Positions 11,997 through 33,073 of a stretch of 64,000 nucleotides of DNA are shown here, in pieces. Source of the stretch: a phage; assembly GCA_036253495.1 (NCBI GenBank), contig GCA_036253495.1_4125.1, one strand, 5' to 3'. The translations under genes and the position numbers were made by a program. Position 1 is the first letter of the stretch; each line of letters begins with the position of its first letter. The notes beneath the pieces were generated by a model. The model was not told the DNA's origin and did not search any database. It saw nothing but the letters and a program-made list of their open reading frames with translations.

Positions 11997-12024
11997 TGGA
12001 CATATGACAATTCAATGATATAAT
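11997..12024 (+). promoter_or_regulatory. sigma70-like early promoter (TGGACA-16-TGnTATAAT)
   Basis: -35-like TGGACA, 16 nt spacer, extended -10 TGATATAAT, about 30 nt upstream of the ATG at 12056. Confidence 0.5.
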
Positions 12025-13699: not shown

Positions 13700-13719
13700 A
13701 TTCTTGGTGATATAATGAT

Positions 13720-13752
13720 GAGTGGCAATATATCTTTGTCACTCTTTTTTTT
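13720..13752 (+). terminator. rho-independent terminator
   Basis: 9 bp stem gagtggcaa/ttgtcactc (one G-U) followed by a run of 8-9 T. Confidence 0.7.
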
Positions 13753-13760
13753 AATCCTGA

Positions 13761-14391
13761 AAGGTTCCATATGGAAATGATTAAGAGCCTAATCCACTCG
13801 AAAATGTAGAGGGTAGATGAGTAGTCCTTTCAGTACGAACAGCAGATGAAACCCGTCAGATGTGGGCATATTATGAACCCCTCACGGCAATGCGGCTGTA
13901 TAAAGAACTCCGATAAGCACACAGAGAGTTCCTAGATAGACATATAAGGATCGCACCTTACCAGATTTGCTAAGGGAGATTTCATTAGAAATTGCGGTCA
14001 ACTATTTGTACAAGATAGTTGCGTCCAAAATTTGGTGAAATCAAATACCAGTACTGTTCATATGGTACTCGTATTATGTGTCGGGATGTTTAAGACCGAC
14101 GACCGTTGCTACAAGAACCGCGATAGAGAGAAACAGAGCAACCCGCTTTCGCCTCGTTAAGAGAATTCGTGATATGAAATATGTGAAGACCACCAGCGTC
14201 AAATTTTAATTCTTTCCCCCAGTGGGGGGATGAAATATGCTCTTCCAAACCTCGTCAATATTAATTAAAACCATTTAGTACTATTAGAATTATTCAGAGC
14301 GTAGCGATGAATTAATTCTACTGATGTTGATTGAGTGCTAACGAAATCAATATCGAGTACATTATTTGATGTTTCCTAAAAAGGAATAATA
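13761..14391. other. ORF-free, GC-enriched intergenic island; candidate structured RNA, origin/packaging signal or decayed gene
   Basis: No ORF of 60 aa or more on either strand in a genome that is otherwise densely coding; local GC visibly higher than flanks (e.g. 14101-14160 about 50 percent); contains the hairpin cccccagtgggggg; only tiny peptide ORFs without credible RBS. Confidence 0.35.
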
Positions 14392-14951: not shown

Positions 14952-15479
14952 ATGGGGAAAAAGGATAATCCCACAAAAAACAAACATTCGGTACACTTCA
15001 GTACTGGAAAAGATAACTGGACTACTCCAAAGGAATTCTTTGAAGATTTGGATGAAGTCTGGGGATTTACACTTGATGCAGCATGTGTTAAAGAAACTGC
15101 ATTATGTGACAAGTTTTTTACACCGGAAGATGATAGTCTTTCACAGGATTGGGGAAACAATATCGTCTTTCTTAACCCACCATACAGCGACCTGAAACCT
15201 TGGCTATCTAAGGCAGTTGATGCTTATAATAATGGTGCAACAGTACTGATACTTGTTCCATCACGTACTGATACAATTGCATTTCAGGAATATGCATCTA
15301 AGCTTTGTGACTGTATTTGTTTTATTAAAGGACGTTTAAAATTTGGCATCCCTGAAGAACCAGATAAAAAGACTGATAGTGCTCCATTCCCTAGCTGTTT
15401 AATAGTACTGGATAAGTACTTAACACCAGCTAAAATCAACCATCTTAAATCTATCGGTCAGGTGATGAAGAATATATGA
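14952..15479 (+). CDS. dam: DNA N6-adenine methyltransferase, phage Dam family
   Basis: 175 aa; catalytic NPPY motif (FLNPPYSD); N-terminal WTTPKEFFEDL...FTLDAAC typical of small phage Dam-family enzymes. Confidence 0.8.
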   Translation: MGKKDNPTKNKHSVHFSTGKDNWTTPKEFFEDLDEVWGFTLDAACVKETALCDKFFTPEDDSLSQDWGNNIVFLNPPYSDLKPWLSKAVDAYNNGATVLILVPSRTDTIAFQEYASKLCDCICFIKGRLKFGIPEEPDKKTDSAPFPSCLIVLDKYLTPAKINHLKSIGQVMKNI

Positions 15480-22703: not shown

Positions 22704-23845
22704 GTAATTTACGAGAAATATACAATGATTTAATGGAACTATGTGAATCTAATGATGCATTTTTCTATATAGATCACACAAGCCCTGGTGGTGGTTTATA
22801 CCGTGTATTCACCTATCGTCTGGCATCTTATACCGATTTCACAAATAAAAATGCACTAGAAACTCGTGGTTCTATGTGGGAAATTGATTCCAACGGAATT
22901 ATGATTCGTTGTGCAGCACGTACAATGAAAAAGTTCTTCAATGCATATGAAAACCCGTACACAATGTTCAGTACTGATACTACCTGTGATGATATTGCGG
23001 TTGTAATGCCTAAGCTAGATGGATCTATCATCAGCACATTCCGTGATAATGATGGTGAAATCCGTTGCAAATCACACACTTCGTTATCTTCTGACCATGC
23101 TATTAACAGTACTCGACTTTTGAACGAGAACCAAAATCTCTATCAATACATTGATGAAGCAGACCGTTTGGGCTATACTGTGAATCTGGAATACACAAGC
23201 CCAGAGTATCGAATTGTGTTACCATATCAGGTGGAACAGTTATTTGTTCTTAACGTTCGTCATCGTATTAGTGGTGAGTTGTTATGCGGTAAAGCACTAC
23301 GTGATAAGTTTCCATGCCTTTCACAGTACAGTACTAATATGACAGGTAATGACATTCATCATACATTCCCGATTATGCCTACATTTAAAGAGTCAATCGA
23401 TAAAGTACGTTCTATGATTGACATTGAAGGTTTTGTGTGTATAATGAAAGATGGTACAATGTGCAAAATCAAAACTGACTGGTATTGCTCTTTGCATTTA
23501 ACAAAAGATTCCATTCTTATTGATTCCCATTTATATGAAGCTGTACTGACTGGTGCAAGTGATGACTTAAAACAATTGTTCAGTACTGATACATATGCTA
23601 TGGATAAGATATTAAGAATGGAACAATTGGTATTTTCGTGCTATAATGCTTTACAAGATGAGGTAGAAAGCTTCGTCCATGCATACAAGCACTTAGAGCG
23701 AAAGGAATTCGCACAAAAGGTTCAGCAAGATTTACCGAATGTATTGAACCGACAAGGCTTGGCCTTTGCGTTGTACAATGGCAAAAGTGTCGATTATAAA
23801 GAGACTTTACTAAAGTACTACAAAGATGTACTAAAGGATTTTTAG
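22700..23845 (+). CDS. rnlA: RNA ligase 1 (T4 RnlA-like)
   Basis: 381 aa; nucleotidyltransferase motif I KxDG (VMPKLDGSI); N-terminal and C-terminal blocks (EIYNDLMELCE, IMKDGTMCKIKTDWY, GASDDLKQLF) colinear with T4 RNA ligase 1 as recalled. Confidence 0.85.
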   Translation: MSNLREIYNDLMELCESNDAFFYIDHTSPGGGLYRVFTYRLASYTDFTNKNALETRGSMWEIDSNGIMIRCAARTMKKFFNAYENPYTMFSTDTTCDDIAVVMPKLDGSIISTFRDNDGEIRCKSHTSLSSDHAINSTRLLNENQNLYQYIDEADRLGYTVNLEYTSPEYRIVLPYQVEQLFVLNVRHRISGELLCGKALRDKFPCLSQYSTNMTGNDIHHTFPIMPTFKESIDKVRSMIDIEGFVCIMKDGTMCKIKTDWYCSLHLTKDSILIDSHLYEAVLTGASDDLKQLFSTDTYAMDKILRMEQLVFSCYNALQDEVESFVHAYKHLERKEFAQKVQQDLPNVLNRQGLAFALYNGKSVDYKETLLKYYKDVLKDF

Positions 23846-24918: not shown

Positions 24919-25851
24919 ATGCCAACTATTACACTAACAGTTGGATTGCCAGGATGTGGTAAAACCACGTGGGCAGTGCAAGAAATTAAAAAAGCAAAGT
25001 CCAAGACTATCAACATCAACCGTGATGATATTCGAGAGTCTATGGCTGGGTCACATGATGCTTATAAATTCACTGATGCGAACGAGAAGTACGTAACTAA
25101 TCAACAGTTCAGTGCAGCAAACGCCGCAGCAGCGAATGGATGGAACATTATTGTGTCCGATACGAACCTGAAACAAGGTTTTCGTGATGAATGGAAACGT
25201 TGGGCTAAAGATAATGGCTACGACTACAAAGAAAAGAACTTCTACGAAGATTTTGTACCGAATGAAGACCGTGGTGCAGATGTTCATGAATTCTTTAAGA
25301 TTAAGGAATTCGTGAAGCTCTGTAAGAAACGCAACCTTCTTCGTGAGCGTTCAGTACAAGATGAAATCATTGACACTATGGCAGATACGTACTATTATAG
25401 TAAGGCGATGCACATTGGTTACTATGGTAATGCACGTGAAGCTGCTATCATTGTTGATATCGACGGTACTCTTGCTCATAAGTGGGGACGTAACCCGTTT
25501 GATGAAAGTACTGTCCTTCAGGATACACCAGATGAAGAAGTAATTCTGTCTGTCATTGCTGAGGCTGTTTTCCATAAGCGTAAGGTAATCGTCATGAGTG
25601 GGCGTACTGAAGGGTGTCGTGCTGATACTGAACAGTGGCTTAAGAATTGGGGCATTCCCTACGATGTATTGTTAATGCGAGCTATCGATGATAAACGTCC
25701 TGATGATGTTGTCAAATTCGAGTTGTATATGAATAACGTTGTTAATCATTACGATGTTAAGAAAGTATTTGATGACAGGGCCGCCGTTGTATTCATGTGG
25801 CGTAAGCTACTAGGCTTGAAAGTATTTCAGGTGGAACCTGGACTATTTTGA
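24919..25851 (+). CDS. pseT: polynucleotide 5-prime kinase / 3-prime phosphatase (T4 Pnk-like)
   Basis: 310 aa; N-terminal P-loop GLPGCGKTT; C-terminal HAD phosphatase motif IVDIDGTLA; colinear with T4 Pnk as recalled. Confidence 0.85.
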   Translation: MPTITLTVGLPGCGKTTWAVQEIKKAKSKTININRDDIRESMAGSHDAYKFTDANEKYVTNQQFSAANAAAANGWNIIVSDTNLKQGFRDEWKRWAKDNGYDYKEKNFYEDFVPNEDRGADVHEFFKIKEFVKLCKKRNLLRERSVQDEIIDTMADTYYYSKAMHIGYYGNAREAAIIVDIDGTLAHKWGRNPFDESTVLQDTPDEEVILSVIAEAVFHKRKVIVMSGRTEGCRADTEQWLKNWGIPYDVLLMRAIDDKRPDDVVKFELYMNNVVNHYDVKKVFDDRAAVVFMWRKLLGLKVFQVEPGLF

Positions 25852-25857
25852 TTATTA

Positions 25858-25892
25858 CAAAGGGATCAGTACTGATCCCTTTTCTTTTAATT
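25858..25892 (+). terminator. rho-independent terminator built on a perfect 20 nt palindrome
   Basis: agggatcagtactgatccct (perfect inverted repeat with CAGTACTG core and two GATC sites) followed by a T-rich tract. Confidence 0.7.
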
Positions 25893-25903
25893 TAGGTGAT
25901 ATA

Positions 25904-26164
25904 ATGGATAATAGTTATGATGTACATTTCAAACAATGCCAGTTGGTTTTACACTCCCTAATGGAAGAGTTGCGAATCAAGTACATAGGCAAAATTGCTA
26001 CATGTTTATCAACTGGAAGACGTGGGCAAATTGTAGAGATTTATTATTCTCCACTTAGTGATGAAATTAAAATAAAAGCTAAAATATTCCTAACTGGATC
26101 TAACAATTTCTTGGGTGAACATATGGTAAAAATTATCTCTGAATTATCGATAACGGATGAATAA
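25904..26164 (+). CDS. small protein, IG-motif paralog family
   Basis: 86 aa; LRIKYIGKIATC. Confidence 0.65.
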   Translation: MDNSYDVHFKQCQLVLHSLMEELRIKYIGKIATCLSTGRRGQIVEIYYSPLSDEIKIKAKIFLTGSNNFLGEHMVKIISELSITDE

Positions 26165-31877: not shown

Positions 31878-33073
31878 TGAATTTTCCTGAAAAGATTTTC
31901 GTCGCAAGACGTTTTGTTAGTGGGGATCAGGTTGACGGATATATTATCGACGCAACTAAAATGCACACTAAAGCATTTGAAACTAAGAAAGAACGTGTTG
32001 AGTACTGGGCAAGAACCAATAATATGCCGTCACTTATACTCGACAATGAACCGAAAAAAGGTTTTGCTATTGTTCAAAAATTGATTCACAGTGGGCGTGA
32101 TACCTATTTTGTTTGTCGTCACCCAGAAGGATTTGAGTTCAATATCACTGCAAACAATATGCTGGACTTAATCACACACAATGATATCGTTAATGGTGTA
32201 TTCCAAGATGCTATGTTCTTTAATAATAATCTTGAACTCATCAATGGTAATACAAAAACATTTGCTAAGATGCAAGAGAAGCAAGAAAAAGCTGAAGAAC
32301 GTAAAAGCGTTGTTGGTGAGTTGAAAGTTGGTGATGGATTCCTTTATAACAAAAAAGAGTACTACTATTGTGGTCGCGTTCATGCTCTTTGTTTGAAGAA
32401 AACTAAAGAATTCTCTTTACCTAACAAAAGTTCTTTCTATCATATGGTGTATTGTATCGCTGATGGTACATATGGTGTATGTGCAAGCCTTGACCGATAC
32501 GAATTAACACCCAGAGCACTCCATAACGTTAAAACAACAATGGAAGCTGAAATTGTTAAAGCAAATGCGTATTTCAATACGTACCGAATGCGAACTGAGA
32601 ACGCATTAGGTGAATGCAATAGACCAGTACTGATCAGTACTAAATCATTTAAAAGTACTGATATGAAAGTAAAATACACTGAAATCACTAAAGATGTTCT
32701 TGTTAATGGTCGTTTCAATGAAAACGTATTATTCATGACTGAACAGAATGGTCAAAAATATCGTGTATTCTTTGGTATTTCAGATAACAACAGCAGAAAT
32801 TCCTATGGATATTATCGCCATGATTATTCTATAGCGTACAAGGGTGATTTTGAAAAATACTGCGGATACCCAGTGGAAGTTGATGCGAATGGTGTAATGT
32901 CAATGGATGTTGATATCGATGAACATACATCTTTCAATACATGGCGTGGTTATAATTCACCTTTCTATCCACCAACCAAACGATACAGTAATAATACATC
33001 AGAATCTAATAAAAAACCTATGGTTCATATTAGCACTGACTGTCCTATTTTTTATGGAACCTATTATCTATAA
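31877..33073 (+). CDS. hypothetical protein (398 aa)
   Basis: Track ORF 31814..33073 trimmed to ATG overlapping upstream stop (ATGA). Confidence 0.6.
   Translation: MNFPEKIFVARRFVSGDQVDGYIIDATKMHTKAFETKKERVEYWARTNNMPSLILDNEPKKGFAIVQKLIHSGRDTYFVCRHPEGFEFNITANNMLDLITHNDIVNGVFQDAMFFNNNLELINGNTKTFAKMQEKQEKAEERKSVVGELKVGDGFLYNKKEYYYCGRVHALCLKKTKEFSLPNKSSFYHMVYCIADGTYGVCASLDRYELTPRALHNVKTTMEAEIVKANAYFNTYRMRTENALGECNRPVLISTKSFKSTDMKVKYTEITKDVLVNGRFNENVLFMTEQNGQKYRVFFGISDNNSRNSYGYYRHDYSIAYKGDFEKYCGYPVEVDANGVMSMDVDIDEHTSFNTWRGYNSPFYPPTKRYSNNTSESNKKPMVHISTDCPIFYGTYYL

What the first reader, a model, noticed from the sequence alone, without database searches (positions are those of the whole stretch)
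25858..25892. Perfect 20-nt palindrome terminator centred on CAGTACTG and containing two GATC sites
agggatcagtactgatccct is a perfect inverted repeat followed by a T-rich tract immediately after pnk. It combines the enriched AGTACT core with two Dam-type GATC sites, so it may be both a terminator and a protein-binding site.
Basis: seen in the sequence. Interest (0 to 1): 0.35.

Follow-up and report, generated by a model that had tools for sequence, protein, structure and literature searches.

The report
Ordinary terminator hairpin after pnk
The palindrome is an ordinary transcription-terminator hairpin after the polynucleotide kinase gene of a jumbo coliphage. Its AGTACT centre and second GATC are quirks of this lineage, although AGTACT is strikingly over-represented across this whole phage clade.

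Summary
The perfect palindrome is 24 nt (25859-25882, AAAGGGATCAGTACTGATCCCTTT). It starts 7 nt after the pnk stop codon, is followed by TCTTTT, and is the longest perfect palindrome in the window.

The window is an Asteriusvirus jumbo coliphage, 96.9% identical to phage A4. Every relative examined across Asteriusvirus, Alcyoneusvirus and Mimasvirus has a hairpin right after pnk, followed by a T tract in all but TH47. The stem is kept through a U-A to U.G change and compensatory double changes, or replaced by an unrelated stem. The loop varies freely: GUAC, UAUAU, UAUGU, GUAUA, AUGUA, UUCG. The orthologous element is already annotated as a terminator in phages G17 and UE-S1.

AGTACT occurs at this site only in the window and A4. 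The second GATC is lost in most relatives, and both GATC sites are absent in others. The terminator reading is therefore well supported and the protein-binding reading is not.

Separately, AGTACT/CAGTACTG is a clade-wide highly iterated palindrome. It is 8-11x enriched (about 90x for the 8-mer), occurs in all codon frames and in non-coding DNA, and is conserved above background. It is absent from T2, and I found no description of it in the literature searched. One copy inside a terminator is about what its density predicts.

The parts
24919..25851 (+). pnk (pseT-type polynucleotide 5'-kinase/3'-phosphatase). It is the last gene of the rnlA - small ORFs - pnk block.
   Evidence: ORF list. Pfam HAD_PNKP 5.5e-42 and AAA_33. 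99.7% aa identity to the A4 pnk.
25859..25868 (+). 5' arm of the hairpin (AAAGGGATCA). It contains the GATC at 25864-25867.
25869..25872 (+). Loop GUAC. Together with the closing A-U pair it makes AGTACT (25868-25873). The 12-nt stretch ATCAGTACTGAT at 25865-25876 matches the consensus of the iterated palindrome.
   Evidence: The loop differs in every other lineage.
25873..25882 (+). 3' arm of the hairpin (TGATCCCTTT). It contains the GATC at 25874-25877, which is GGTC (a U.G wobble) in G17-type relatives.
25880..25888 (+). T tract TTTTCTTTT (U-rich tail; its first three T also close the stem).
25894..25906 (+). Shine-Dalgarno AGGTGA, TATA spacer and ATG of the next ORF. The string TGATATAAT (25897-25905) looks like a -10 box but is read here as ribosome-binding-site context.
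25904..26164 (+). 86-aa ORF of unknown function. It is the first of a run of small ORFs downstream.
   Evidence: ORF list. No Pfam match. 28% identical to G17_00480, with a shared MD start.

Best explanation
This is a rho-independent (intrinsic) transcription terminator that closes the rnlA - small ORFs - pnk transcription unit of an Asteriusvirus jumbo coliphage.

On the + strand RNA, AAAGGGAUCA and UGAUCCCUUU form a 10-bp stem with a GUAC tetraloop, followed by a U-rich tail (UUUUCUUUU). By established knowledge of intrinsic terminators, such a hairpin forming in the RNA exit channel while RNA polymerase sits on the weak rU:dA hybrid releases the transcript.

No recognisable promoter lies between the hairpin and the next ORF, whose ribosome-binding site starts 12 nt after the stem. 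I therefore infer that termination is partial, and that the hairpin also protects the 3' end of the pnk message.

The perfection of the palindrome, its AGTACT centre and its second GATC are features of the A4 lineage that are not needed for this function.

Shown: the structure, its position, its strand, and its conservation with covariation. Inferred: actual termination, its efficiency, and read-through.
For: - **Structure:** hairpin of -13.5 to -14.2 kcal/mol, z = -4.15 against shuffles. It is picked up by the terminator scan on the + strand only.
- **Position:** 7 nt after the pnk stop codon, on the coding strand.
- **Strand:** the reverse strand has only UUUG after the stem.
- **Conservation:** a hairpin directly after pnk occurs in A4, G17, PBECO4, Turkey3, Sharanji, SD-6_S16, phAPEC6, 121Q, ph0011, UE-S1, CMSTMSU, JNE01, Turkey5, TH47, fENko-Kae01, RaK2, GAP32 and XbC2. 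All but TH47 (A/T-rich tail) follow it with a T tract.
- **Covariation:** the stem is kept through U-A to U.G in the G17 and phAPEC6 types. This change pairs only in + strand RNA. Two pairs show compensatory double changes (C-G/A-U to A-U/C-G in GAP32 and XbC2). JNE01 has G-C to C-G when folded on its own. The loop differs in almost every lineage.
- **Replacement:** fENko-Kae01, RaK2 and TH47 have unrelated stems at the same place.
- **Prior annotation:** the orthologue is annotated as a terminator in G17 (ARNOLD, -10.9) and UE-S1.
- **Clade context:** predicted rho-independent terminators are common in this clade, with 74 reported in CBB (PMC5259590), 12 in the 50-kb syntenic stretch of G17, and about 13 intergenic + strand candidates in this window.
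Against: - There are no transcript 3'-end data for any phage of this clade at this site.
- The stem has only 4 G-C pairs out of 10, and the U tract is interrupted by a C, so efficiency may be modest.
- Because the palindrome is perfect, the hairpin folds as well on the - strand (-14.0). Strand assignment therefore rests on the T tract, the gene orientation and the U.G wobble in relatives.
- The small ORFs downstream have no evident promoter of the nGGACA-N13-TGATATAAT family before 37200. A strong terminator here would leave them unexpressed, so read-through or promoters I did not recognise must be assumed.
Confidence: 0.8

Rival explanations
1. Dual-purpose element. Besides terminating transcription, the 24-bp double-stranded palindrome is bound or modified by a dimeric protein. 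Candidates are the unknown factor that reads the iterated AGTACT/CAGTACTG motif, or a Dam/SeqA-type system acting on the two GATC sites 10 bp apart. Such binding would modulate termination or local DNA transactions.
For: - The centre ATCAGTACTGAT is a perfect 12-nt match to the consensus of a strongly enriched motif. TCAGTACTGA occurs 18 times and the 12-mer 3 times in the window.
- AGTACT sites in general are conserved above background: 55 of 78 sites (70%) against 37% for background hexamers. Something therefore reads them.
- The phage encodes a PF05869 Dam-family N6-adenine methyltransferase at 14952-15479.
- The two GATC sites are one helical turn apart.
Against: - AGTACT at this site occurs only in the window and A4. 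Nine other lineages have other loops.
- The 3' GATC is lost in most Asteriusvirus genomes, and both GATC sites are absent in five lineages.
- One AGTACT in about 290 nt of terminator hairpins is what the density of one per 362 nt predicts.
- GATC is under-represented in the genome (0.6x).
- No terminator-specific association of the motif was seen.
Confidence: 0.1
2. The element is an RNA hairpin that does not terminate transcription. Instead it acts only as a 3' stabiliser, a processing site (RNase III/RNase E barrier) within a long polycistronic transcript, or as a spacer structure between pnk and the next ORF.
For: - No promoter is recognisable between the hairpin and the downstream ORFs. 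These ORFs must therefore be transcribed through it.
- Stem stability is moderate, at -13.5 kcal/mol.
Against: - The T tract is conserved together with the hairpin even where the stem sequence is completely replaced (fENko-Kae01, RaK2, GAP32, JNE01). A stabiliser or processing site would not require that.
- The Shine-Dalgarno sequence of the next ORF is not sequestered by the hairpin.
Confidence: 0.07
3. The palindrome is a chance occurrence with no function.
For: 3 of 200 Markov simulations give a palindrome of 24 nt somewhere in 64 kb.
Against: Its position directly after a stop codon, the T tract, and conservation with covariation across three genera.
Confidence: 0.02

Closest known systems
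Rho-independent terminators annotated in related jumbo phages (G17 terminator at MK327931 299197-299215; UE-S1 terminator after UES1_394; 74 predicted in CBB)
   Same: It occupies the same position after pnk. The stem is homologous (AAAGGGAUCA / UGAUCCCUUU against UGGUCCCUUU), the T tract is the same (CUUUU) and the strand is the same.
   Different: The loop is GUAC instead of UAUAU, UAUGU or AUGUA. This makes the DNA a perfect 24-nt palindrome with AGTACT at its centre and a second GATC. The downstream neighbour also differs: G17-type phages have an extra 58-aa ORF.
HIP1 (GCGATCGC), the highly iterated palindrome of cyanobacteria
   Same: This comparison concerns the AGTACT/CAGTACTG motif, not the terminator. 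Both are octameric palindromes occurring once every few hundred bp, in coding and non-coding DNA, far above expectation. HIP1 contains methylated sub-motifs (PMC6105098 and PMC6604393, listed).
   Different: The sequence differs and the setting is a phage clade, not a cellular genome. No methylation data exist here. One-mutation neighbours are not depleted, so no repair-drive signature was seen.
SlmA-binding site of E. coli (GTGAGTACTCAC; PMC3020112)
   Same: Both are palindromes with the same AGTACT core.
   Different: The phage motif prefers C/G at the flanking positions (C in 104 of 177 copies at -1). The G/C flanks needed for the SlmA consensus are the rarest: GAGTACTC occurs once and the full site never. 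The enrichment persists in XbC2, a Xanthomonas phage.
PeSL (promoter-early stem-loop) cassettes of T4-type phages (Arbiol et al. 2010; cited from my own knowledge, not read here)
   Same: It is an intergenic stem-loop at a boundary where gene content differs between relatives. Nucleotide homology with 32 genomes ends at about 25890, and the 58-aa ORF is present in some relatives and absent in others.
   Different: There is no adjacent early promoter, because TGATATAAT is ribosome-binding-site context. The element is single-copy in the window.

Membership tests
Intrinsic (rho-independent) terminator | Stable stem-loop of about 5-14 bp with a short loop | tested here: met
   10-bp stem, 4-nt loop, -13.5 to -14.2 kcal/mol, z = -4.15
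Intrinsic (rho-independent) terminator | U-rich tract immediately 3' of the stem on the transcribed strand | tested here: met
   UUU closes the stem and is followed by UCUUUU. The - strand has only UUUG.
Intrinsic (rho-independent) terminator | Located downstream of a gene end, in the same orientation | tested here: met
   Starts 7 nt after the pnk stop codon on the + strand
Intrinsic (rho-independent) terminator | Structure rather than sequence conserved among relatives | tested here: met
   One-sided U-A to U.G change and two pairs with compensatory changes. Loops are variable. Unrelated stems with T tracts occupy the same site in RaK2 and fENko-Kae01; TH47's unrelated stem has an A/T-rich tail instead.
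Intrinsic (rho-independent) terminator | Transcript release at the U tract by RNA polymerase alone | not testable with these tools
   Needs Term-seq or in vitro transcription
Palindromic operator / protein-binding site | Recognition bases conserved among relatives that keep the element | tested here: not met
   AGTACT is present in 1 of 10 lineages. The centre of the palindrome is its most variable part.
Dam/SeqA-type GATC pair | Two GATC sites on the same helical face | tested here: met
   Sites at 25864 and 25874, 10 bp apart
Dam/SeqA-type GATC pair | Both GATC sites conserved | tested here: not met
   The 3' site is GGTC in the G17 and phAPEC6 types. There is no GATC in GAP32, XbC2, RaK2, fENko-Kae01 or TH47.
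PeSL-type promoter/stem-loop cassette | Early promoter adjacent to the stem-loop | tested here: not met
   TGATATAAT at 25897 lacks the GGACA -35 element of the window's promoter family and overlaps the conserved ATG. TATAATG start contexts occur in 7 of 111 genes.
PeSL-type promoter/stem-loop cassette | Many similar copies in the genome | tested here: not met
   Single match in the window with up to 3 mismatches allowed
Copy of the clade-wide iterated palindrome (T)CAGTACTG(A) | Exact match to the consensus | tested here: met
   ATCAGTACTGAT at 25865-25876
Copy of the clade-wide iterated palindrome (T)CAGTACTG(A) | This particular copy retained in relatives, as 70% of alignable copies are | tested here: not met
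   Absent in G17 and all other non-A4 relatives

The most novel reading that the evidence does not exclude
The A4 lineage remodelled the terminator loop (TATAT/GTATA to GTAC, and G to A in the 3' arm). The result is a perfect 12-nt copy of a selected, clade-wide, apparently undescribed highly iterated palindrome with consensus TCAGTACTGA. This motif occurs about once per 360 bp, in all codon frames and in non-coding DNA, and is conserved across Asteriusvirus, Alcyoneusvirus and Mimasvirus whatever the host.

On this reading, the same 24 bp would serve as an RNA terminator and as a double-stranded DNA site for whatever reads AGTACT, be it a dimeric phage protein or a methyltransferase. The terminator would then be a handy natural test case with matched with-motif and without-motif alleles (A4 versus G17).
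Probability: 0.2. Interest if true: 0.55.

Novelty: already known. Interest (0 to 1): 0.15.

Why it matters
As a terminator it matters only for annotation. It marks the 3' end of the rnlA-pnk unit and the last conserved sequence before a hypervariable run of small ORFs.

The wider point is the motif at its centre. AGTACT/CAGTACTG is enriched 8-11x (about 90x for the 8-mer) in every RaK2-like jumbo phage sampled, but depleted in T2. It is strong enough to bias amino-acid sequences, and it is conserved above background. If a factor reading it exists, it would be a genome-wide feature of a whole clade of giant phages that I did not find described in the literature searched.

Tried and rejected
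**Promoter reading of TGATATAAT (25897-25905).**
- The same 9-mer is the -10 element of a promoter family, nGGACA-N13-TGATATAAT, at 12016, 13708, 19770 and 37200.
- Here there is no GGACA, and the hexamer overlaps the ATG of an ORF whose MD start is shared by its homologues.
- TATA-ATG is the commonest start context in the window, in 7 of 111 genes.
- I read it as a ribosome-binding site.

**Very-short-patch-like repair drive as the cause of AGTACT enrichment.** One-mutation neighbours, including the deamination products AGTATT/AATACT, are not depleted (0.8-2x).

**AGTACT sites as SlmA sites.** The flanks are wrong and the enrichment is independent of host.

**The hairpin as a repeated or mobile element.** It is single-copy in the window. 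The exact 18-mer occurs in IMG/VR only in three unrelated contigs without a T tract.

**Paralogy of the downstream small ORFs.** BLASTP gives only two marginal matches, so no claim is made.

**Database and literature searches.**
- Rfam and tRNA scans of the window found nothing.
- Literature searches for AGTACT/CAGTACTG in these phages, and for iterated palindromes in phages, returned no relevant description.

**MAFFT/RNAalifold alignment of JNE01.** Its alignment is out of register because of a bulged U. The 'broken' pairs for that row are alignment artefacts, and its own fold pairs correctly.

Full report
**What is there.** The window is from an Asteriusvirus jumbo coliphage. The 1.6 kb around the finding is 96.9% identical to Escherichia phage A4 and about 86% identical to some 30 other Asteriusvirus genomes.

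It is the core of a 24-nt perfect palindrome, AAAGGGATCAGTACTGATCCCTTT, at 25859-25882. GATC occurs at 25864 and 25874, and AGTACT at 25868.

The palindrome starts 7 nt after the TGA of a 310-aa ORF (24919-25851). That ORF is a polynucleotide kinase/phosphatase (Pfam HAD_PNKP and AAA_33). The palindrome is followed by TCTTTTAATT.

It is the longest perfect palindrome in the window. Only 3 of 200 first-order Markov simulations produce one of 24 nt.

**Structure and strand.** As RNA, the + strand folds into a 10-bp stem with a GUAC loop. The energy is -13.5 to -14.2 kcal/mol, with z = -4.15 against dinucleotide shuffles. The U-rich tail is UUUUCUUUU, counting the three U that close the stem.

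The - strand folds as well, as any perfect palindrome must. However, it is followed by UUUG only. The consensus scan reports the site on the + strand only. All neighbouring genes are on the + strand.

**Comparative evidence.** I read the sequence after pnk in 18 genomes. All have a hairpin directly after the stop codon, and all but TH47 follow it with a T tract.
- A4 is identical to the window.
- G17, PBECO4, Turkey3, Sharanji, SD-6_S16 and CMSTMSU have the same stem with UGGUCCC in the 3' arm (U-A becomes U.G) and the loop UAUAU.
- phAPEC6 and 121Q have the loop UAUGU.
- ph0011 has the loop GUAUA.
- UE-S1 has the loop AUGUA.
- JNE01 and Turkey5 keep GGAUC but have changed the pairs below it (G-C to C-G, A-U to G-C).
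- GAP32 and XbC2 (Mimasvirus) have AAGGGAUAC-UUCG-GUAUCCCUU. They share the base of the stem, and the two top pairs are changed on both sides.
- fENko-Kae01, RaK2 (Alcyoneusvirus) and TH47 have unrelated stems at the same place.

RNAalifold on the alignable forms gives the same 10 pairs. Two pairs show compensatory double changes and two show one-sided wobble changes.

The U.G wobble pairs only in + strand RNA. The loop, which is the centre of the DNA palindrome, is the least conserved part. This is the signature of an RNA hairpin, not of a protein recognition sequence.

The orthologous element is already annotated as a terminator in G17 (ARNOLD) and UE-S1.

**The AGTACT core and the GATC sites.** At this site, AGTACT occurs only in the window and A4. 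Two GATC sites occur only in the window/A4, ph0011 and UE-S1. One occurs in the G17, phAPEC6 and JNE01 types. None occurs in GAP32, XbC2, RaK2, fENko-Kae01 or TH47.

GATC is under-represented in the window at 0.6x. The phage does encode a PF05869 Dam-family methyltransferase at 14952-15479, and the host has Dam. The GATC sites are therefore probably methylated, but nothing suggests this matters for the element.

My own scan finds about 13 intergenic + strand terminator-like hairpins in the window. Only this one contains AGTACT. At the window-wide density of one AGTACT per 362 nt, about 0.8 copies are expected in roughly 290 nt of such hairpins. The co-occurrence is unremarkable.

**Downstream context.** The string TGATATAAT at 25897-25905 is identical to the -10 element of a promoter family that I noticed in the window, nGGACA-N13-TGATATAAT. 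Three things argue against a promoter here:
- There is no GGACA at the -35 position.
- The hexamer overlaps the ATG of the next ORF, whose MD start is shared with its homologues in G17 and JNE01.
- TATA-ATG is the commonest start context in the window.

I read it as Shine-Dalgarno AGGTGA plus spacer plus ATG.

No promoter is evident before the following small ORFs, so I infer that termination is partial.

Nucleotide homology with most Asteriusvirus genomes ends at about 25890. G17-type phages carry an extra 58-aa ORF there. The terminator is thus the last conserved sequence before a hypervariable block.

**The iterated palindrome, noticed in passing.**
- **Frequency.** AGTACT is the most frequent hexamer in the window: 177 copies against 21.6 expected. 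CAGTACTG occurs 57 times against 0.6 expected, and TCAGTACTGA 18 times.
- **Where it occurs.** It occurs in all three codon frames (82/17/58 on the + strand) and in non-coding DNA.
- **Shuffle controls.** Within genes there are 161 copies. Shuffling synonymous codons gives 41 +/- 5, and shuffling codon order gives 23 +/- 5. The bias therefore reaches into protein sequence.
- **Spacing.** Spacing is random, with a coefficient of variation of 0.96.
- **Conservation.** Of 78 copies alignable to G17 at 83% nucleotide identity, 55 are conserved (70%), against 37% for background hexamers.
- **Distribution across phages.** The enrichment is 9.2x in G17, 8.7x in RaK2, 10.2x in GAP32 and 10.7x in the Xanthomonas phage XbC2. 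It is 0.24x in T2.
- **Controls for simple explanations.** Other palindromes of the same composition are depleted. Single-mutation neighbours are not depleted.
- **Comparison with SlmA.** The core equals that of the E. coli SlmA site GTGAGTACTCAC (PMC3020112), but the flanks are the opposite.
- **Literature.** I found no description of this motif.

**Verdict.** The finding is an ordinary intrinsic terminator of a known and already annotated kind. The idea of a protein-binding site is not supported at this locus. What deserves its own follow-up is the genome-wide AGTACT palindrome, of which this is one recently acquired copy.

Noticed in passing
whole window (e.g. 721, 2187, 6034, 26811, 32626); also L011 (G17), L014 (RaK2), L015 (GAP32), L022 (XbC2): AGTACT/CAGTACTG is a clade-wide highly iterated palindrome. 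It is enriched 8-11x (about 90x for the 8-mer), occurs in all codon frames and in non-coding DNA, and is randomly spaced. 70% of copies are conserved against G17, compared with 37% for background hexamers. It is depleted in T2 (0.24x). I found no description in the literature searched.
   Followed up: partly
window 12016, 13708, 19770, 37200 (also 45212, 10262): There is a promoter-like family, nGGACA-N13-TGATATAAT, in intergenic regions on the + strand. It has an extended -10 element and a GGACA -35 element. TGATATAAT occurs 7 times on the + strand against 1.65 expected.
   Followed up: partly
window 13700-14391: This is a 692-nt stretch without a long ORF. It begins with one of these promoters (13708), followed immediately by a hairpin and T8 (13720-13752). 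It could be a short RNA or a leader. There is no Rfam match.
   Followed up: no
window 32626-32641: The 16-nt perfect palindrome AGTACTGATCAGTACT has two AGTACT around one GATC. This is the mirror arrangement of the terminator's GATC-AGTACT-GATC.
   Followed up: no
window 23418-23445 and 25370-25398: A perfect sigma-70 consensus (TTGACA-16-TATAAT, 12/12) lies inside rnlA, and an 11/12 match (TTGACA-17-TATTAT) lies inside pnk, both on the + strand. They may be internal promoters or chance matches: the scan as a whole finds fewer sites than shuffled sequence does.
   Followed up: no
window 14952-15479: This ORF is a PF05869 Dam-family N6-adenine methyltransferase, 87% identical to G17_00508. It is conserved in the same neighbourhood in RaK2, GAP32 and XbC2. 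Its specificity is unknown, and there is no solved homologue by sequence.
   Followed up: partly
window ~25890 onward versus L001 2484-2660: G17-type Asteriusvirus genomes carry a 58-aa ORF between the terminator and the homologue of the window's 86-aa ORF. The window, A4 and JNE01 lack it. Nucleotide homology with 32 genomes ends right after the terminator.
   Followed up: partly
L007 (TH47) 1545-1625: TH47 has replaced the usual pnk terminator with an unrelated, longer hairpin (AATAGTGCATATA...TATATGCACTATT). It is followed by an A/T-rich stretch rather than a clean T tract.
   Followed up: no
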